A stretch of 64,000 nucleotides of DNA from a virus. Taxonomy: Duplodnaviria > Heunggongvirae > Uroviricota > Caudoviricetes. Positions 9,295 to 44,008 of this stretch are shown piece by piece (within the stretch, counting starts at the first letter, position 1; each line of letters begins with the position of its first letter). The notes under the pieces are model-generated. The model ran no database searches. It was not told the DNA's origin and saw only the letters and a list, made by a program, of their open reading frames with translations. A program made the translations under genes and the position numbers. The stretch lies in IMG/VR virus record IMGVR_UViG_2563366960_000002; one strand, given 5' to 3'.

Positions 9295-10512
9295 ATGCCA
9301 ACTGAATATGCTCGCGACAACCTTGGTCGCTATCAGACCGATGGATTAAGTGCAAAAGACTTTAACAAGGTCTTCGATCTTATCCGTAAACAGCAGCGTC
9401 AGAATCGGCGAAACGCGCGGCGTACACTCACCCCAAGGATTATGGGGATGCGTAACCGCGAACTTGAGGCATTCCTCAGCCTTGGGAAAAAGAAAGATGG
9501 CACCTACTTTACGCCCGAAGATATACGCAGTTTCAACACCTCAAGGCAGGCTCATAAAACCAAATTCAAGAGCACGGTACCCGGCATTACCTATGCTCAG
9601 CTGGTGGCGCAGTCCACCAGCATTGATATAAAACGCGCTAACAACAAAGTTTCTGATGGCACAGGGATCAAAGCCGCGACATTCCTCGGGCTAAAACACA
9701 ACCTTGCATTGATATCTGTTAATGCCTCGGATGAGTCGGTCCACCAGCATCACCGTGTCAGAATTCGATTTGAGGAATGGGATAAAGCCGTTGAGGAAAT
9801 TGCTGAAGACGGTGCGAAAAAAGCCCGAATCGCTGCCGATCTCTGCAAGGGCCGGGTATCTTTCGACTGTGATTGTGGACGCCATCAATACTGGTATCGT
9901 TATATGGCCACGGCTGGTAACTATGCTGTCGCGCCGCCAAAAGAGTATGCATTCCCCAAGATCCGCAACCCTGATCTGACTGGTGTAGCCTGCAAACATG
10001 TGTTGCACGCTATGACGCGTTTTCAATCTCCCACATGGCACAAGGCCATCATTATTGCCCTGGAAAAAGCAGCTGAACAGGTGGCCTTCGGCGATGACAA
10101 GCGGAAGACAACAACCTATTTCAAAGGCGAACTGGCTAAATCACTCGCACGCAACCGGACAACAACGACGGATCAGGCTAAAGCGGCGCGTGAGTATGAG
10201 TTATATCTGAAATCTCAGGATGCATTAGGCAAAAAACTACGCGCCAAAGATAGCGCCACGGACAACGTTCGCCGGTTGTTAAAAAAAGCTCGCACCACGG
10301 CAAACAGGAAGAATGCCGAACTAAAAGCATCGCGGGTGAGGGAAGCCCAGGCTCGCGCTGAAGCCGACGCCCTCAAAAAAGCCCTGCAAACGCAGGCGAA
10401 CAACCTCATAAAGTTTTTCATAAGTCAGGGAATGGACAAGGCCGCTGCCACCGCGCAGGCGCGAAGCATTCTTGAGACACAAATTAACGAAGCCCGTAAA
10501 CGGAAAGGATAA
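9295..10512 (+). CDS. hypothetical protein with SWIM-like zinc finger and basic coiled-coil C-terminus
   Basis: 405-aa ORF; FDCDCGRHQYW...GVACKHVLHAM fits CxCxnCxH. Confidence 0.5.
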   Translation: MPTEYARDNLGRYQTDGLSAKDFNKVFDLIRKQQRQNRRNARRTLTPRIMGMRNRELEAFLSLGKKKDGTYFTPEDIRSFNTSRQAHKTKFKSTVPGITYAQLVAQSTSIDIKRANNKVSDGTGIKAATFLGLKHNLALISVNASDESVHQHHRVRIRFEEWDKAVEEIAEDGAKKARIAADLCKGRVSFDCDCGRHQYWYRYMATAGNYAVAPPKEYAFPKIRNPDLTGVACKHVLHAMTRFQSPTWHKAIIIALEKAAEQVAFGDDKRKTTTYFKGELAKSLARNRTTTTDQAKAAREYELYLKSQDALGKKLRAKDSATDNVRRLLKKARTTANRKNAELKASRVREAQARAEADALKKALQTQANNLIKFFISQGMDKAAATAQARSILETQINEARKRKG

Positions 10513-35180: not shown

Positions 35181-35777
35181 ATGGCTGTGATTCCAATGTC
35201 GTACTCCCCGGGTACTGTCGCTCGTCGATTTTCGATCCTGGACGGAGTTACCATCCAGGGTGTGCTTTACCAGGTTATATGGGATTCCAAAACCCCATTT
35301 GCAGCTGTAATAGAGGCTGCGCCTTCTGTTATCGATGGTGATATGCGGCATAAGGTTGTCGCTACTCTTGAACTTCAACGTCGCCCGCAGCTTGAAGGTG
35401 TACTGGTAAGGAGGTTCTGGGAGGATAGTGATGTTGCCCAAATTGAAGGTATCGTGGTTGATGGAACCGTCCGTGATGTCGGTTTAGCTACTTTTGTTTA
35501 CGAAACCGTAGCCTCAAAAGCTGGTGTTGTTTTGCTTAGTGATAATGAGCAATACGAAGGTGGAAAAGCTCTTTGGCAACACATCGCCCGTCGCTCTTCC
35601 GAGCTAAAAGTGTTTATCCTCGACACCGATGCCGCTCAGTATTACCCGTTTGACGGCGAACGTGTTTGCTATGACGGGGTAAGTATTCCTGAATCTGAGA
35701 TATGGAGTGAACACCCAGATCGAAGTAAGCATGGGGTTGTTCTTGTCGCTGAATCCATAACTGGAAAGGCGGCATAG
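35181..35777 (+). CDS. hypothetical protein
   Basis: 198-aa ORF with AT-rich promoter-like leader and AAAGGGGGA RBS. Confidence 0.5.
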   Translation: MAVIPMSYSPGTVARRFSILDGVTIQGVLYQVIWDSKTPFAAVIEAAPSVIDGDMRHKVVATLELQRRPQLEGVLVRRFWEDSDVAQIEGIVVDGTVRDVGLATFVYETVASKAGVVLLSDNEQYEGGKALWQHIARRSSELKVFILDTDAAQYYPFDGERVCYDGVSIPESEIWSEHPDRSKHGVVLVAESITGKAA

Positions 35778-36066
35778 CAGTAAAATTCCTTGCTCCTTAA
35801 AAGGGGAGAGGGTTAATCTAGATATGCTAAGCATGGATATGGCCTCAGATTAATGTTAAGCGTCTTGCAGGACGCGTAATGTTATCTGGGGCTTTCTTCT
35901 GTTATTTGTTTGAGTGCTAGGTAGCAAAGAGAGCTAGCATTCATCAGGCAAATCTATCAATAAATAGCGTTAGTTTTTGTTGTGTGTATGTTTCTTTATT
36001 GTTATTGTGTTGTTTGTTTTTTGGACAACGCAATTCCTATAATCTATAGAATAAAGGAAGTATATA

Positions 36067-36353
36067 TGGCTGATGTACGCATTACTTGCATTACCCTCTC
36101 CGGCTCGCAATCAATCCATGAGCATATTACTCATGTGGGAAGTCCTCAATTTAATACTAGCAATGGGAAATGGACTGTTGAGCAGGTAATTAATGCTATT
36201 GATAATAATCTCCATACATTCTATGTAACAGATAATGCAGGTAATCGTGTAGAAGTTGGGGTTGTTAATCCTGGTAATGGTGGAAGGCAGTTTATTAGAA
36301 CGTATGCAGACAATCGATGGAATAATAATTTACTATCGCTACCAGTCTGTTAA
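36067..36353 (+). CDS. small hypothetical protein, low-GC moron
   Basis: Start set at ATG 36067 after AGGAAG RBS; AT-rich coding; strong terminator follows. Confidence 0.5.
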
Positions 36354-36364
36354 TGTAATTTTAT

Positions 36365-36398
36365 AAAAAAGGCTGCAACCTCTGTTGCAGCCTTTTTT
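36365..36398. terminator. bidirectional intrinsic terminator (A6-GGCTGCAAC-N4-GTTGCAGCC-T7)
   Basis: Direct read between convergent genes. Confidence 0.75.
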
Positions 36399-36423
36399 TA
36401 GCTATTATGACTGAGATAAGCCA

Positions 36424-37479
36424 CTATAAACTCTGAACAAGACGTTCGATTGCTGCACCATATCTTTCTAATGGTTCATTATTGATTTGTGGCTCAGTGT
36501 CATGGATCTGATATCTGCCTGGTTTTATATCAAATAGAGGTCTTCCTAGATGGGAAGATACTATAGCTACGGAATGGTTATCTGGCACAGTAAACGTTTT
36601 TAAATTTCCGCCTTGGAACGCTGTTGGTTTATTCGTCCGCAGATTTTCAGCTCTATCCCTGATTTCGTCGAACATTGCCGAAAACGCTTTACTTGCTCGT
36701 TTGTCATACTCTGTCGAACGATTAAAAACTAGAGAATGAATGACAGGAACCGCTAGACCAAACTGTTGACACCGATCGTAAAAGTTAACAGAACGATAAT
36801 CGTTTTGTACTCCAACGCCATAAACCAACTGGCTTAGGTTATCCACTGCTCGAGCCGAAGAACCATCACTTGAGCAAGGTATTATAATTGCATTTGCTGC
36901 TATCAGTGATAGTTCGGTATAGGCAGAGAAACTGGGGTTGCAATCAATAAAGCAAATGGTTTCTTCGATACCTTGTTGTTGTGCACATGCAACAAGCAAA
37001 TCTCGTAGCCACAGGTGGATGCTTTTCCATGAGTCAACTGGTAAGTTTACGCTGCTTAACTGATTGATTACTTGCGCCTGAACTTCCAGGCTTGGGTCGC
37101 CTGCAATCAAAAATACATTGTCAGGGACATGCCCGTTAATTTCAGAGACATGAATTAAGAAACTTGTTTCTGAACCGGTAAGCATGTGGGGGCTGCGAGT
37201 TCTTCTGTCAAAGTACCCACCGACAGTTTTTCGTTGTTGAATTAAGCTCGCGAGGTTAGCAGCACCAGTACCGTTACCACCGAGCAATATTTCAGATAAG
37301 TTAGCCTGCGGACACATATCTGCAAAAATAATACGCTTTTCTGGATTTTGCCTTGCGTATTCACAGGCCATAGCGAAAGATAAGTAGGTCTTTCCTACGC
37401 CACCTTTATTATTCCAAATAGCATACGATTTCATGGTATCCCCGGCGTTATCTGCTGTTTGTGTGCCAGCATAAGTCAT
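36424..37479 (-). CDS. orphan ParA/MinD-family ATPase (not part of the partition locus)
   Basis: Deviant Walker A NNKGGVGKT, A' IIFADMCPQAN, Walker B ICFIDCNPS; alternative start ATG 37434 (MKSYAIW) is plausible; no ParB-like partner adjacent. Confidence 0.6.
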   Translation of the reverse strand: MTYAGTQTADNAGDTMKSYAIWNNKGGVGKTYLSFAMACEYARQNPEKRIIFADMCPQANLSEILLGGNGTGAANLASLIQQRKTVGGYFDRRTRSPHMLTGSETSFLIHVSEINGHVPDNVFLIAGDPSLEVQAQVINQLSSVNLPVDSWKSIHLWLRDLLVACAQQQGIEETICFIDCNPSFSAYTELSLIAANAIIIPCSSDGSSARAVDNLSQLVYGVGVQNDYRSVNFYDRCQQFGLAVPVIHSLVFNRSTEYDKRASKAFSAMFDEIRDRAENLRTNKPTAFQGGNLKTFTVPDNHSVAIVSSHLGRPLFDIKPGRYQIHDTEPQINNEPLERYGAAIERLVQSL

Positions 37480-40619: not shown

Positions 40620-40837
40620 AAACCCCCCTGAACGTCGGCAGAGAAGGGGAGGCTCCAGTAACTAAGTGAATTGCGCGAGTCAGTTGAAAAACGGGCAGTA
40701 AAAATGCAGGGGCCATCAGGCAATTGAGAGCGTGCTTCGTCTTCTGTTGCTGCGATAACGAAGTGATAGTGACGTTTTTGGCAGGAGTAAAAGCGCCAGA
40801 TAAATTCAGGATGAGTTTGGGTAGGGGTAGTAGCCAC
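40616..40837 (-). CDS. icd: Icd-like cell-division inhibitor, small ORF coupled to ant
   Basis: 73-aa ORF, GTG start after AAAAGGAGG RBS; position and size match P1 icd as recalled. Confidence 0.55.
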   Translation of the reverse strand: MATTPTQTHPEFIWRFYSCQKRHYHFVIAATEDEARSQLPDGPCIFTARFSTDSRNSLSYWSLPFSADVQGGL

Positions 40838-40879
40838 AATGGCAGCCTCCTTTTGCTAATTTAAGGAGCTACCGCGTGA

Positions 40880-41090
40880 GGTTCCAATCTCAATGGCGGT
40901 AGCACTGACTGGGTTGGAACTACCGGCGCAAAAGGGAACCGGCCTGCCTTTCGGCAGCCCAGCCAGCACTACCATTGATCTCGGAGCTATGTGCTACGTA
41001 TGGCTGTGCGATGGCATGACACAAAAAAGACGCTTTTGGCGTCTGTGTCGCCTTTTGCATTATCCGGGGTTCCAATCCCGGCATCCGTTT
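40880..41090 (-). ncRNA. c4-type antisense RNA region with complementary target elements (boundaries approximate)
   Basis: Leader between operator/promoter and icd contains GGTAGTTCCAACC complementary to GGATTGGAACC upstream and GATTGGAACCTC downstream; the latter sits in a hairpin next to the icd RBS. Confidence 0.4.
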
Positions 41091-41170
41091 TACTAAGATG
41101 CCTGTTTAGGATAAACCGAAAATGCATTAGCACGCAAGAAAGTTAATGTAGCATATGAAGCTAAAAAAAC

Positions 41171-41187
41171 AAAATAATTAGAGCAAT
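41171..41187 (-). promoter_or_regulatory. C1-type operator variant (ATTGCTCTAATTATTTT on minus strand), 15/17, at the immunity-region promoter
   Basis: Direct read. Confidence 0.55.
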
Positions 41188-41333
41188 TTGCAACCGTGCG
41201 AATTATTTCTCAGGTAACTAAAATACATAACTTTAATTGATATAGATCAAAGATTTTGACCATTGCATGGTGAAACTTTGTGCTACAAAATGTTATTTTA
41301 AGGCGTTTTATCTGTGACAGGAGATAGTTAATC

Positions 41334-41684
41334 ATGTCATCTGAACATGTTCGTAAAGGTGTAACAAATGCGAAATTCAATGAAGAGCAATCTAATATTC
41401 TCTTTATTGAAATAGGAATTCTGTCAATACTGATAGGTTTAATATCTAAATCATGGTGGGCTTTTGGCGGTTCTTTTCTTGGACTGATTTTTAGTTTAAG
41501 AATAAAATTTCTGGCAATTCCATTGATGATTGTTTTTAGCTTAGTATGGGGAGCTATTGGCTATAGTATTGGTACTTTGTTTGAATCAACAGCAGCAAGT
41601 ATTGTTTTGGGGGTAATTGCTTTCCTGAGTGGCTTGGGGACTCATTTTGCTGCCGTGCAATGGGCAAATGATATTGCAGAATAA
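41334..41684 (+). CDS. small polytopic membrane protein, low-GC cassette gene 1
   Basis: 116-aa ORF with three to four hydrophobic helices; GGAG RBS. Confidence 0.55.
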   Translation: MSSEHVRKGVTNAKFNEEQSNILFIEIGILSILIGLISKSWWAFGGSFLGLIFSLRIKFLAIPLMIVFSLVWGAIGYSIGTLFESTAASIVLGVIAFLSGLGTHFAAVQWANDIAE

Positions 41685-41706
41685 TTACAGATAAGAAGCG
41701 AAAATA

Positions 41707-42183
41707 ATGAATATGAGATTGTTTTTATTGTTTGTATCGTTAATTTCAGCAGGAGCATTTGCAAAAATTGATCCTCTACAATGGAATGTGATTGAAGAGA
41801 GAGGGGGGAGAGAATATACAATCCATAATCATAATGGTGATAAGATAAGTTTTTTATGTGATATGGGATTCATGTATGGTTCACCAGATAGTGCAGGTAG
41901 TTTAGGCTTGTTGCTAAGTTCGTCGAATAATAAAAAGGAGTATAATGCTGACAAGAATAAAATAGTATTAACTATAGATGGTGAGCAATACCCTTTTAGC
42001 AATCTTGGGTCAATGGTTGGAGATTCTTGGTGGTATGCCTTTTGGCAAGATGCAGCAGATTCAAGTGCTAATATGATTGATGCTTATGTTGATGATGAAA
42101 AAATTGCTACATTCCCTCTTTCTGGGCTAAGTAAGTTGTATCAACAAGCCAAAATGGATGGATGCATTAAACGAGGAAAATGA
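41707..42183 (+). CDS. secreted/periplasmic protein, low-GC cassette gene 2
   Basis: 158-aa ORF with signal peptide MNMRLFLLFVSLISAGAFA. Confidence 0.55.
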   Translation: MNMRLFLLFVSLISAGAFAKIDPLQWNVIEERGGREYTIHNHNGDKISFLCDMGFMYGSPDSAGSLGLLLSSSNNKKEYNADKNKIVLTIDGEQYPFSNLGSMVGDSWWYAFWQDAADSSANMIDAYVDDEKIATFPLSGLSKLYQQAKMDGCIKRGK

Positions 42184-42257
42184 TCTTTCTGTGTTAAAGA
42201 TTAACGCAATCAATAAAACATTGGTTGCGTAATATTCTATTATATAAATGGAATAAT

Positions 42258-43292
42258 ATGACAAAAATTACTAATTCTAATGAGTTGGAGTTACTGTACA
42301 AACAGTCAGTAATCATTCCATCATACAAAGATCACGTAGCGATCTTGCAAAAACAATTAGGAATAGAAAAACATTCTTTTCAAAATATGACAAGATTGAA
42401 TAGACAAGCTGTAATTAGTAACGCTCTTCGAAAACAATTGGCTAGTATGCCGAACTTGGCTGGAATAGGCAGCAAGTATCGTGAACATATCGCGATTTTA
42501 CAGAAACAGACACAGGCTCTTTTCCCTCATAACGCAAATAGATATATTCAAATGCTAAGGAAACAGGCAGAAATAGCTATGCCATTACGAAACCAGCTTG
42601 AGATGCTTAATAAGCAAGCTGGTTTAAATAACATGCAAGCGATACTTAAAGAATTACAACAAAGTGCAAGTTATAAAATAGATGTAAGCCAAGACATAAA
42701 GAAAGTACTAGATCATTATGCTAGAACAAGAAATGCTTCATTACATCAAATAATAGAGCAGGGGCTTTCATCTATTGCGCAGGCTTATGCTGAAGGTGCT
42801 ACTGAAACATCACACACCAAAAGTGATGTCCAAAACAAAGGATTAAATAAATCTAATTCAACGTTTGTTGATTCATTTAAAGAGCTTCCTTATCCGCTGC
42901 AATGGTTACTAATGGTTATATTTTCTCAAGTTGTGTTTGGTGCCTTTATTGATTACGGAAAGGAGAAAACCTTATTGGGAATACACGAGGCAGAATCATA
43001 CCTTATATCTCTGTTTGAGGATAAACCAATATCAAAACAACAATTAATTAAAGAAAACAAAAAAATTAGTTGGGAAGATCTCAATGGTTTTCGTTTTATA
43101 ACTGGTGAGAACGTAAGATTACACGTCAGTCCTTCTGTAAATAGTGAAGTGATTGAATGCATTGCCAAAAACACAATCGTTGCTATTTTAGATAAAAAAG
43201 ATCGACAATGGCTTTTCGTGCAGGTTAAATCAGGGGACGAGTTTATTACTGGATGGATTACACGAACATATACAAAGCCTCTTAAGGCTTGA
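42258..43292 (+). CDS. membrane-anchored protein with repeat/coiled-coil N-terminus and C-terminal SH3b-like domain, low-GC cassette gene 3
   Basis: Start set at ATG 42258 (track uses TTG 42225); repeated AILQKQ / MLRKQ / MLNKQ units; one TM helix; C-terminal SH3-like pattern. Confidence 0.5.
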   Translation: MTKITNSNELELLYKQSVIIPSYKDHVAILQKQLGIEKHSFQNMTRLNRQAVISNALRKQLASMPNLAGIGSKYREHIAILQKQTQALFPHNANRYIQMLRKQAEIAMPLRNQLEMLNKQAGLNNMQAILKELQQSASYKIDVSQDIKKVLDHYARTRNASLHQIIEQGLSSIAQAYAEGATETSHTKSDVQNKGLNKSNSTFVDSFKELPYPLQWLLMVIFSQVVFGAFIDYGKEKTLLGIHEAESYLISLFEDKPISKQQLIKENKKISWEDLNGFRFITGENVRLHVSPSVNSEVIECIAKNTIVAILDKKDRQWLFVQVKSGDEFITGWITRTYTKPLKA

Positions 43293-43417
43293 ATTTTATC
43301 TCCGTACCTTGGGGCTGGGTGTTGATGATGCTACTTGAAGCACTTGAGTTGTTTTAACGTAGTATCTGAAATGTGTAGACTGACCGGTAACAAATGACAA
43401 CTCGTAGAATCGGTTAA

Positions 43418-44008
<591 letters not shown>

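What the first reader, a model, noticed from the sequence alone, without database searches (positions are those of the whole stretch)
41200..43300. Low-GC three-gene membrane/periplasmic cassette at the sim-like position
Seen: three co-oriented ORFs (polytopic membrane protein, signal-peptide protein, and a protein with repeats, one TM helix and a C-terminal SH3b-like domain) whose composition is visibly more AT-rich than the flanks. The cassette sits between the immunity-region promoter/operator (41171..41187) and the first tail gene (43442). Established (from memory): P1 carries its sim superimmunity genes next to c4. Inference: a horizontally acquired envelope-acting module, possibly superinfection exclusion or another defence or conversion function; I could not place any of the three proteins in a named family.
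Basis: partly seen in the sequence, partly recalled or inferred. Interest (0 to 1): 0.72.

Follow-up and report, generated by a model that had tools for sequence, protein, structure and literature searches.

The report
Envelope-protein cargo in P1 sim slot
In this P1-like phage-plasmid, the known variable site that holds the sim superinfection-exclusion genes in P1 instead carries two juxtaposed accessory modules encoding three uncharacterised membrane or periplasmic proteins; they probably act at the cell envelope against incoming phages, but this is untested.

Summary
Three co-oriented genes (41334-41684, 41707-42183, 42258-43292) fill the lowest-GC 2.2 kb of the window (0.347 vs 0.475, z = -4.3). 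They lie exactly between the C1 operator of c4 (41171-41187) and the late promoter LPsit (43392-43410) in front of pmgC. In P1 this slot holds simABC. It is a published hypervariable, low-GC region of P1-like phage-plasmids.

The cassette is not one acquired unit.
- ORF2 is a Sec-exported member of the named YfjT/YkfB family (PF27224). It is the commonest resident of the slot, found even in distant relatives.
- ORF1 is a small polytopic membrane protein that always travels with this ORF2 allele.
- ORF3 has a cytoplasmic variable helical-repeat region, one TM helix and a conserved periplasmic SH3b domain. It is an autonomous moron: in Citrobacter and Salmonella D6-like elements it sits alone at another locus, on an element with no YfjT gene.

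All three genes are under purifying selection. None resembles Sim, any PADLOC defence protein or any solved structure. Every cargo variant examined in this slot encodes exported or membrane proteins, so envelope-level exclusion of incoming phages is the best-supported function (about 0.4). No phenotype is known. I rate it a moderately interesting new variant of a known kind.

The parts
41171..41187 (-). C1 repressor operator of the c4-icd-ant operon (Oc4/Op51); left edge of conserved P1 backbone
   Evidence: Reads ATTGCTCTAATTATTTT, two mismatches from the consensus; 9 sites in the window against 0.46 expected. Aligns with the annotated operators of P1 and P7.
41188..43388 (.). Variable low-GC cargo slot, equivalent to the simABC region of P1
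   Evidence: GC 0.347 against 0.475, z = -4.3. Homology to P1, P7 and Ro157 stops after the operator and resumes at LPsit. At least 7 alternative cargo architectures among 85 P1-like loci.
41334..41684 (+). ORF1: 116-aa polytopic inner-membrane protein (PHROG 15014, unknown function)
   Evidence: pN/pS of 0.05-0.12 against other alleles. Always found with the ORF2 allele. No hit in Pfam, NCBIfam, PADLOC or PDB.
41707..42183 (+). ORF2: 158-aa Sec-exported periplasmic protein of the YfjT/YkfB family (PF27224; PHROG 3429). The signal peptide is residues 1-19 (41707-41763).
   Evidence: The 96%-identical cluster representative carries PF27224, named YfjT. 29% identical to K-12 YfjT, E = 6e-12; family profile against K-12 YfjT, E = 1.7e-33. 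PGAP name 'YfjT/YkfB family phage-associated protein'. AlphaFold2 pLDDT 86.6, a beta-sandwich plus a long helix. C51 invariant and C153 nearly invariant. pN/pS of 0.2-0.28.
42204..42230 (+). Hairpin in the ORF2-ORF3 spacer, just downstream of the junction between the two modules
   Evidence: Terminator-like stem of 11 pairs with a weak T tail. Homology with slots that carry ORF1+ORF2 but not ORF3 ends at about 42171.
42258..43292 (+). ORF3: 344-aa bitopic inner-membrane protein. The cytoplasmic helical repeat region is residues 1-211 (42258-42890), the TM helix residues 212-234 (42891-42959), and the periplasmic linker plus SH3b domain follows (SH3_3 at residues 285-338, 43110-43271).
   Evidence: dN/dS of 0.3-0.75 in the N-terminal region against 0.1-0.15 in the SH3 domain. 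PHROG 7086. Family of 38 clusters, restricted to P1/D6-like elements of Escherichia, Citrobacter and Salmonella.
43275..43290 (+). Short palindromic hairpin overlapping the ORF3 stop codon; a possible terminator
   Evidence: 6-pair stem, tail GAATTTTATC.
43392..43410 (+). Late promoter LPsit (-22 box and -10); right edge of the slot
   Evidence: Reads AAATGACAACTCGTAGAAT, one mismatch from P1 LPsit. Conserved in all four aligned phages.
43442..44008 (+). pmgC (tubA), first gene of the pmgC-tub-pmgB-sit late operon; a boundary marker, not part of the cassette

Best explanation
SHOWN.
- The window is a P1-like (Punavirus) phage-plasmid.
- The stretch 41188-43388 is the cargo of its 'sim slot', a recombination-prone, low-GC site. 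The slot lies between the C1 operator of the immI operon and the late promoter LPsit.
- In this element the slot holds two separable accessory modules.
- Module 1 is ORF1 plus ORF2. ORF1 is a small polytopic inner-membrane protein. ORF2 is a Sec-exported, probably disulfide-bonded periplasmic beta-sandwich protein of the YfjT/YkfB family.
- Module 2 is ORF3, an autonomous single-gene moron. ORF3 encodes an N-in/C-out bitopic membrane protein. Its roughly 210-residue cytoplasmic helical-repeat region varies freely between alleles. Its periplasmic linker and SH3b domain are nearly invariant across three genera.
- All three genes are maintained by purifying selection.

INFERRED.
- The genes lie outside the late operon, next to the immunity control region, as sim does.
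- Solitary ORF3 homologues must carry their own promoter.
- On this basis I infer that the genes are expressed from the prophage.
- Their products then sit in the inner membrane and periplasm.
- There they most likely interfere with entry of superinfecting phage DNA, after adsorption and before the DNA reaches the cytoplasm. This is the step that P1 Sim blocks.
- A plausible division of labour is as follows. ORF3 anchors to peptidoglycan through SH3b and obstructs or mis-positions the tail-tip/Sit penetration site. ORF2, with ORF1, binds a periplasmic component of the ejection machinery or of the host entry route.

Confidence is about 0.9 for the anatomy and about 0.4 for the exclusion function.
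For: Position:
- The cassette is an exact positional replacement of simABC.
- The slot is a published hypervariable, low-GC region (PMC9603915).

Envelope theme of the slot. Every cargo variant examined encodes exported or membrane proteins:
- SimA-remnant/gp35, SimB, SimC, Upf50.0 and gp34 have signal peptides.
- P7 Upf50.5 has a lipobox and a weak TraT-like match (E = 7e-5).
- DUF4760 is a multi-TM protein, and a Citrobacter variant is a 2-TM protein.

Turnover and modularity:
- At least 7 architectures occur among 85 loci whose backbones are 97-100% identical in pmgC.
- YfjT alleles are only 28-39% identical to each other.
- ORF3 is solitary and low-GC (0.36 against 0.49) in D6-like elements with no YfjT gene.
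- ORF1+ORF2 occur without ORF3, with the junction at the ORF2 stop.

Topology and domains.

The genes are real: dN/dS is below 1 everywhere.

No late promoter lies inside the cassette; LPsit lies downstream of it.
Against: - No sequence or fold similarity to SimB/SimC or the P7 cargo, to any PADLOC defence model, or to any PHROG annotated as exclusion.
- No consensus sigma-70 promoter was found upstream of ORF1 by the simple scan, so expression in the lysogen is unproven.
- The YfjT family gene sits upstream of pmgC even in distant relatives. That could equally point to a conserved phage-cycle role.
- The K-12 paralogues yfjT and ykfB have no reported phage phenotype.
- dN/dS in the variable N-terminal region of ORF3 is relaxed (0.3-0.75) but not above 1, so no arms-race signature is demonstrated.
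Confidence: 0.4

Rival explanations
1. Lysogenic conversion that is not aimed at phages. The envelope proteins would change host physiology, for example envelope robustness, peptidoglycan tethering, serum or bile resistance, or colonisation, and so favour carriage of the phage-plasmid.
For: - Same envelope targeting and moron-like features.
- The alternative P7 cargo has a TraT-like lipoprotein signature, and TraT also confers serum resistance.
- YfjT/YkfB paralogues persist in cryptic K-12 prophages. One of them, ykfB, is under host FliA control.
- The cassette is found in isolates from blood, urine, faeces, food and animals.
Against: - No homology to any known virulence or fitness factor.
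- The only characterised cargo in the slot (Sim) is anti-phage.
- Only about 5% of P1-type plasmids carry the full cassette, and 18% carry any part of it. This argues against a strong general host benefit.
Confidence: 0.25
2. A sensor-effector (abortive-infection-like) defence. The variable cytoplasmic repeat region of ORF3 would sense a component of an invading phage or plasmid. The membrane/SH3 part, or ORF1, would execute membrane damage or growth arrest.
For: - The hypervariable cytoplasmic region is joined to an invariant membrane/periplasmic part, an arrangement seen in many sensor-effector defence proteins (from memory).
- ORF3 works as a single gene elsewhere.
- The alternative third gene in the slot is a multi-TM DUF4760 protein.
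Against: - No PADLOC match.
- No recognisable effector domain.
- dN/dS stays below 1 in the N-terminal region.
- Repeat-number variation looks more like a spacer or coiled coil under low constraint.
Confidence: 0.12
3. An accessory role in the phage's own cycle, for example modulating peptidoglycan penetration by Sit, lysis timing, or preventing progeny from wasting ejections on lysed or lysogenic cells.
For: - A YfjT-family gene sits immediately upstream of the pmgC-tub-pmgB-sit operon even in distant relatives such as Cronobacter phage JK004 and L004.
- The SH3b region of ORF3 weakly resembles the wall-binding end of phage amidases (PHROG 1794, E = 0.003).
- Stand-alone SH3 proteins have been proposed as lysis-module accessories in T1-like phages (PMC13164509).
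Against: - P1, P7 and many relatives lack all three genes yet are fully functional phages.
- The genes lie upstream of LPsit, not behind it, and no late promoter precedes them.
- They are not near the lysis genes.
Confidence: 0.1
4. A ToxR/ToxS- or VtrA/VtrC-like envelope signalling pair. ORF3 would be a membrane-tethered DNA-binding regulator (RHH-like segment at residues 141-168) with a periplasmic sensor domain, and ORF2 its periplasmic partner.
For: - Weak RHH_1 match (E = 0.075) and PHROG Arc-like repressor match (E = 0.007) in ORF3.
- The predicted secondary structure there is coil-helix-helix.
- In all 12 complete sim slots with ORF3, a YfjT gene lies directly upstream. In one allele family the two genes overlap.
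Against: - Only 2 of 16 family members give the RHH hit, and one subgroup lacks the segment.
- The family profile finds no RHH protein in the PDB.
- ORF3 exists on an element with no YfjT gene.
Confidence: 0.04

Closest known systems
P1 simABC (superimmunity; SimC is the exported effector)
   Same: Identical genomic slot between Oc4 and LPsit, same orientation, low GC, and exported protein products. From memory (Kliem & Dreiseikelmann 1989; Maillou & Dreiseikelmann 1990): Sim blocks infection after adsorption, and its precursor is processed on export.
   Different: No detectable sequence similarity of ORF1-3 to SimA, SimB or SimC. Different number and architecture of proteins. No phenotype is known.
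YfjT/YkfB family (PF27224): E. coli K-12 CP4-57 yfjT and CP4-6 ykfB; Ro157c2YLVW gp34; Cronobacter phage JK004 gene_13
   Same: ORF2 is a member. It has the same length, a signal peptide, C51 (invariant in the family alignment) and C153 (nearly invariant), and 29-39% identity to these proteins. In K-12 the gene follows another envelope-protein gene (lipoprotein yfjS), and in the phages it follows a secreted protein.
   Different: The upstream partner here is ORF1, a polytopic membrane protein, rather than a lipoprotein or a secreted protein. The function of the whole family is unknown.
Other envelope-level superinfection-exclusion proteins (T4 Imm and Sp, P22 SieA, HK97 gp15, T5 Llp / T1 Cor cassette)
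   Same: Small prophage- or phage-encoded inner-membrane or periplasmic proteins that act at DNA entry. The T1 Cor locus is likewise a three-gene envelope cassette (PMC13164509; PMC11436027).
   Different: No homology: no Pfam, PHROG or PADLOC match. The large cytoplasmic repeat region and SH3b ectodomain of ORF3 have no counterpart among these proteins. The resemblance is architectural only.
SH3b cell-wall-binding domains of phage endolysins and NlpC/P60 hydrolases (PF08239)
   Same: The ORF3 C-terminus matches SH3_3 in all 16 family members scanned and weakly matches the C-terminal end of phage amidases (PHROG 1794).
   Different: There is no catalytic domain. The SH3b is tethered to the inner membrane by a TM helix and joined to a cytoplasmic repeat region. 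The family profile finds no solved relative by sequence.
P7/RCS47/SJ46 slot cargo: Upf50.5 lipoprotein plus Upf50.0 (DUF5384)
   Same: An alternative occupant of the same slot, also with two exported proteins.
   Different: Unrelated sequences.

Membership tests
P1 sim superimmunity locus | Located between the C1 operator of c4 and LPsit/pmgC, transcribed away from c4 | tested here: met
   Alignment with P1, P7 and Ro157; operator; LPsit.
P1 sim superimmunity locus | Encodes a homologue of SimC (or SimB) | tested here: not met
   BLASTP of ORF1-3 against SimA/B/C: best E = 1.9-3.3, short chance segments.
P1 sim superimmunity locus | Confers exclusion of superinfecting P1 after adsorption | not testable with these tools
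   Needs efficiency-of-plating and DNA-entry assays.
YfjT/YkfB family (Pfam PF27224), for ORF2 | Significant match to the family model or to its founding members | tested here: met
   PF27224 is precomputed on the 96%-identical representative P0039 and on relatives. BLASTP against K-12 YfjT, E = 6e-12. Profile of A4 against K-12 YfjT, E = 1.7e-33. PGAP name. The model itself is absent from the local Pfam copy.
YfjT/YkfB family (Pfam PF27224), for ORF2 | About 150-165 aa with an N-terminal Sec signal peptide; C51 invariant and C153 nearly invariant | tested here: met
Bacterial SH3 domain (PF08239 SH3_3), for the ORF3 C-terminus | Score at or above the Pfam gathering cut-off | tested here: inconclusive
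   The window protein scores 26.3 bits against a cut-off of 27. All 16 family members match, best E = 2.3e-9. PF08239 is precomputed on most homologues.
Bacterial SH3 domain (PF08239 SH3_3), for the ORF3 C-terminus | Binds peptidoglycan or another periplasmic ligand | not testable with these tools
   Periplasmic location is inferred from the positive-inside rule only.
TIGR04211 SH3_and_anchor (YgiM-like) | Match to the equivalog model | tested here: not met
   9.2 bits against a cut-off of 65.
Known anti-phage defence systems (PADLOC-DB v2) | Any component model matched | tested here: not met
   No hit for ORF1-3 at E <= 1. SimB, SimC and the other slot cargos tested also give no hit at E <= 0.1, so this library does not cover Sim-type exclusion.
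Ribbon-helix-helix DNA-binding domain (PF01402), for ORF3 residues 141-168 | Family-wide match to RHH models or to solved RHH proteins | tested here: not met
   E = 0.075, and only 2 of 16 members match. The segment profile finds no RHH chain in the PDB.

The most novel reading that the evidence does not exclude
ORF3 founds a new single-gene envelope defence family, restricted to P1/D6-like phage-plasmids. A peptidoglycan-anchored SH3b ectodomain and a freely varying cytoplasmic repeat region would together block or sense phage genome entry. Independently, the YfjT/YkfB family, which includes two E. coli K-12 y-genes, would be a widespread class of periplasmic phage-entry blockers, for example inhibitors of tail-associated transglycosylases such as Sit. 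That would make the P1 sim slot a dedicated, swappable 'entry-exclusion' locus, with Sim only one of several unrelated solutions.
Probability: 0.15. Interest if true: 0.65.

Novelty: new variant of a known kind. Interest (0 to 1): 0.38.

Why it matters
If the exclusion reading is right, the sim slot of P1-like phage-plasmids is a swappable locus for unrelated envelope-level entry blockers. P1-type pmgC-tub DNA is found in 509 PLSDB plasmids, and part of this cassette in about 2% of complete E. coli genomes. It would give a first function to the YfjT/YkfB family, two of whose members are still in the E. coli K-12 y-ome. It would also define a new SH3b-anchored membrane protein family. In practice, such cargo could alter the susceptibility of clinical E. 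coli, Salmonella and Citrobacter to therapeutic phages and to P1-based delivery vectors. If it is not right, the finding remains an ordinary example of moron turnover at a known hotspot.

Tried and rejected
- AlphaFold2 of full-length ORF3 with a 16-sequence alignment gave pLDDT 40. The model was unusable for fold search, and only its secondary structure was used.
- The ORF2 model (pLDDT 86.6) was searched against three libraries.
  - Foldseek on the PDB found nothing at E <= 0.001.
  - BFVD found only uncharacterised phage proteins of the same size.
  - The afdb50 library was unavailable.
- Sequence and profile searches of the PDB found nothing for ORF1, the ORF2 family, the ORF3 N-terminus, the ORF3 C-terminus or the RHH-like segment.
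- The long multi-stretch hits in the exhaustive ORF2 search (P0048, P0054, P0060-62) are repetitive, unrelated proteins such as META, SpaA and SH3 arrays. I dismissed them as spurious.
- A profile search with the ORF3 ectodomain found only fragments of the same family.
- Tandem Repeats Finder found no DNA repeats in ORF3.
- The consensus promoter scan found no site upstream of ORF1. Hand-picked candidates (an extended -10 near 41290; TAAAAT at 41219) are too weak to claim.
- The RHH/membrane-tethered regulator idea and the ToxS/VtrC analogy are not supported.
- The idea that ORF3 needs a YfjT partner was refuted by a complete Citrobacter element that has ORF3 but no YfjT gene.
- P7 Upf50.5/Upf50.0 are not homologues of K-12 YfjS/YfjT.
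- The contexts of distant YfjT relatives were on contigs too short to be informative.
- No paper on the function of yfjT, ykfB, DUF5384 or DUF4760 was found.
- The P1 genome paper is not in the held library.
Full report
**1. What is in the sequence.**

Between 41200 and 43300 the + strand carries three ORFs.

- ORF1 (41334-41684, 116 aa) has three to four hydrophobic segments and a strong ribosome-binding site.
- ORF2 (41707-42183, 158 aa) begins with a canonical Sec signal peptide ending AFA|K.
- ORF3 is 355 aa from TTG 42225. Public homologues start at the ATG at 42258 (344 aa).
  - It has no signal peptide and one hydrophobic helix at residues 212-234.
  - The N-terminal part is net basic (27 K/R against 17 D/E over residues 1-210). 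The stretch after the helix is acidic. This predicts an N-in/C-out topology.
  - The C-terminal domain is an SH3b domain. It scores SH3_3 E = 8.4e-6, just under the Pfam cut-off, and all 16 aligned family members match (best E = 2.3e-9).
They are unmistakable tandem 13-, 17- and 19-residue repeats in the Citrobacter and Salmonella homologues.
- Minus-strand ORFs inside the block are short and lie in AT-rich sequence.

GC is 0.347 over 41188-43388 against 0.475 for the window. This is the lowest of all 2.2-kb windows (z = -4.3).

**2. Where it sits.**

The window is a P1-like (Punavirus) phage-plasmid. The flanks are 96% identical to P1, P7 and relatives, but the cassette itself is absent from all of them.

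- The left boundary is the C1 operator of the c4-icd-ant operon (41171-41187, minus strand). It is two mismatches from the consensus, and the window has 9 such sites against 0.46 expected.
- The right boundary is the late promoter LPsit (43392-43410, one mismatch from P1). It is followed by pmgC, tub, pmgB and sit.
- Alignments show that homology with P1, P7 and Ro157c2YLVW stops right after the operator and resumes at LPsit.

In P1 this slot holds simA-simB-simC. In P7 it holds a lipoprotein (Upf50.5) plus a DUF5384 protein. In Ro157c2YLVW it holds gp35 plus gp34. PMC9603915 already lists simABC as one of eight highly variable, low-GC regions of P1-like phage-plasmids. The 'sim-like position' is therefore correct, and the hotspot itself is known.

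**3. The cassette is a composite, not a unit.**

I fetched 80 P1-like loci from IMG/VR through pmgC. I then classified the DNA between the last operator and pmgC, together with the reference phages and the window. The architectures are:

| Slot content | Loci |
|---|---|
| SimA fragment + SimB + SimC | 15 |
| gp35-like secreted protein + YfjT-like | 19 |
| P7 type (lipoprotein + DUF5384) | 10 |
| ORF1 + YfjT-like + SH3 protein (window type, counting the window itself) | 5 |
| gp35-like + YfjT-like + SH3 protein | 7 |
| ORF1 + YfjT-like without SH3 | 3 |

- In the last type, homology with the window ends at about 42171, at the ORF2 stop. The third position holds a minus-strand multi-TM DUF4760 protein.
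- ORF3-family genes in Salmonella and Citrobacter D6-like elements are solitary + strand genes wedged between minus-strand blocks at a different locus.
- The complete Citrobacter plasmid NZ_CP145667.1 carries ORF3 as a low-GC island (0.36 against 0.49). It has no YfjT-like gene anywhere.
- Hence ORF3 is an autonomous moron, and ORF1+ORF2 form a separate module.
- Conversely, a YfjT-family gene sits directly upstream of pmgC even in distant relatives (Cronobacter phage JK004 and L004). ORF2's family is therefore probably the old resident of the slot.
- P1's 52-aa SimA matches the start of the full ATG-initiated gp35-like ORF at 46 of its first 48 residues (45 consecutive). It is thus a remnant left by the insertion of simBC.

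**4. What the proteins are.**

*ORF2.*
- Its 96%-identical cluster representative carries Pfam PF27224, named YfjT.
- It is 29% identical to K-12 CP4-57 YfjT (E = 6e-12). A family profile hits YfjT at E = 1.7e-33.
- The newest PGAP annotation calls it 'YfjT/YkfB family phage-associated protein'.
- The exhaustive search finds only 23 representative clusters at E <= 0.001, and the longest of those are spurious repetitive proteins.
- In the alignment C51 and W109 are invariant and C153 and W26 nearly so.
- AlphaFold2 gives a confident beta-sandwich with one long helix (pLDDT 86.6).

*ORF3.*
- The family has 38 clusters, all from contigs of about 90-100 kb from Escherichia, Citrobacter or Salmonella. 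It occurs on 64 PLSDB plasmids and on no record in the phage collection.
- The last 110 residues or so are almost invariant. The first 210 or so differ in sequence and in repeat number.
- dN/dS is 0.3-0.75 in the N-terminal region against 0.1-0.15 in the SH3 domain.

*ORF1.*
- It matches only PHROG 15014, of unknown function.
- It is strongly constrained, with pN/pS of 0.05-0.12.

None of the three matches PADLOC, NCBIfam, SimA/B/C or the P7 cargo, or any PDB sequence.

**5. How it most likely works.**

*Shown:*
- The products are one polytopic inner-membrane protein, one periplasmic protein, and one bitopic protein with a periplasmic SH3b domain.
- All are encoded outside the late operon, beside the immunity control region.
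- They lie in a slot where every cargo variant examined encodes exported or membrane proteins.
- The only characterised cargo of that slot, Sim, excludes superinfecting P1.

*Inferred:*
- The genes are prophage-expressed, and they act at the envelope against incoming phage DNA.
- ORF3 would be tethered to peptidoglycan through SH3b.
- ORF2/ORF1 would target a periplasmic step.

I put this at about 0.4. The rivals are:
- non-phage lysogenic conversion (0.25);
- a sensor-effector, abortive-infection-like role for ORF3 (0.12);
- an accessory role in the phage's own penetration or lysis (0.10);
- a ToxR/ToxS-like signalling pair (0.04).

Against the main explanation:
- there is no homology to known exclusion proteins;
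- no consensus promoter was found;
- no positive-selection signal was found;
- no phenotype is reported for yfjT or ykfB.

**6. Frequency.**

- 509 PLSDB plasmids carry P1-type pmgC-tub.
- Of the PLSDB plasmids, 27 have the full cassette at 80% coverage or more, and 90 have some part of it.
- 112 of 5426 complete E. coli genomes have some part and 37 have the whole. All but one copy are on plasmids.
- The best identity to the window is 96.8%.

**7. Verdict.**

The finding is real and correctly placed. It is a new cargo variant at an already-described hotspot, made of two independent modules. One component belongs to a named but uncharacterised family.

Novelty lies in three things. ORF3 is an unexplored protein family. 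The slot seems dedicated to envelope proteins. And the finding gives a testable hypothesis for the YfjT/YkfB y-genes.

Interest is moderate (0.38). The most novel reading not excluded is new entry-exclusion families, with probability 0.15 and interest 0.65 if true.

Noticed in passing
L002 (P1) 3138-3296 vs L001 (Ro157c2YLVW) 3166-3813: P1 simA (52 aa) is not a gene family of its own. It matches the start of the full ATG-initiated ORF of the Ro157 gp35-like secreted protein (224 aa; annotated as 215 aa from an internal start) at 46 of its first 48 residues, 45 of them consecutive. simA is therefore a 5' remnant left when simB-simC replaced the older gp35-like + YfjT-like cargo.
   Followed up: yes
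window 40776-41102 (c4 / immI leader): This stretch is 93% identical to phage D6 and diverges from P1, P7 and Ro157, although icd/ant and the operator are P1-like. This suggests a D6-type C4 antisense specificity on a P1-type backbone.
   Followed up: partly
L018, L023, L030 (slots with ORF1+ORF2 but no ORF3): The third position holds about 1.15 kb of unrelated DNA (GC 0.33). It encodes, on the minus strand, a multi-TM protein of about 297 aa with DUF4760 (Pfam E = 7.7e-14). The swap junction is at the ORF2 stop codon.
   Followed up: partly
window 35601-37000: This is the second low-GC block of the window (0.38), at the rlfA/rlfB position. It holds a DUF3892 protein (35982-36353, +) and a ParA-like AAA_31 ATPase (36424-37479, -). 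It is probably another variable cargo region.
   Followed up: partly
L093/L094 (Citrobacter freundii plasmid NZ_CP145667.1): In this D6-like element the gene directly upstream of pmgC encodes a 237-aa protein with two hydrophobic helices and a coiled-coil tail, next to a GNAT/DUF1778 toxin-antitoxin pair. It is yet another membrane-protein cargo at the equivalent slot.
   Followed up: partly
L085 (E. coli K-12 CP4-57) 8446-9616; literature on CP4-6 ykfB: K-12 yfjT follows ypjK (a small, very hydrophobic protein) and yfjS (an inner-membrane lipoprotein). Its paralogue ykfB is transcribed from a FliA promoter inside yafY, and its deletion has no motility phenotype. In K-12 the YfjT/YkfB gene thus lies just downstream of another gene; for yfjT that gene is the lipoprotein gene yfjS.
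   Followed up: partly
L035, L054 (IMG/VR loci), slot upstream region: Two slots of the gp35-like + YfjT + SH3 type carry an extra 402-aa ORF between the operator and the cargo. From memory it looks like an IS200/IS605-type accessory (TnpB-like) protein. I did not check it against Pfam.
   Followed up: no
E. coli genomes NZ_CP015229.1 1824349-1826448 and NZ_CP012497.1 100675-102774: The same strain (06-00048) shows the cassette both in a 5.5-Mb chromosome record and in a 136-kb plasmid record. This is either an integrated P1-like copy or alternative assemblies.
   Followed up: no
L041, L051, L053, L078 (gp35-like + YfjT + SH3 slots): In this allele family the 168-aa YfjT-like gene overlaps the start of the 394-aa SH3 gene by 14 nt, which suggests translational coupling. 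In the window the two genes are 74 nt apart with a hairpin between them.
   Followed up: partly
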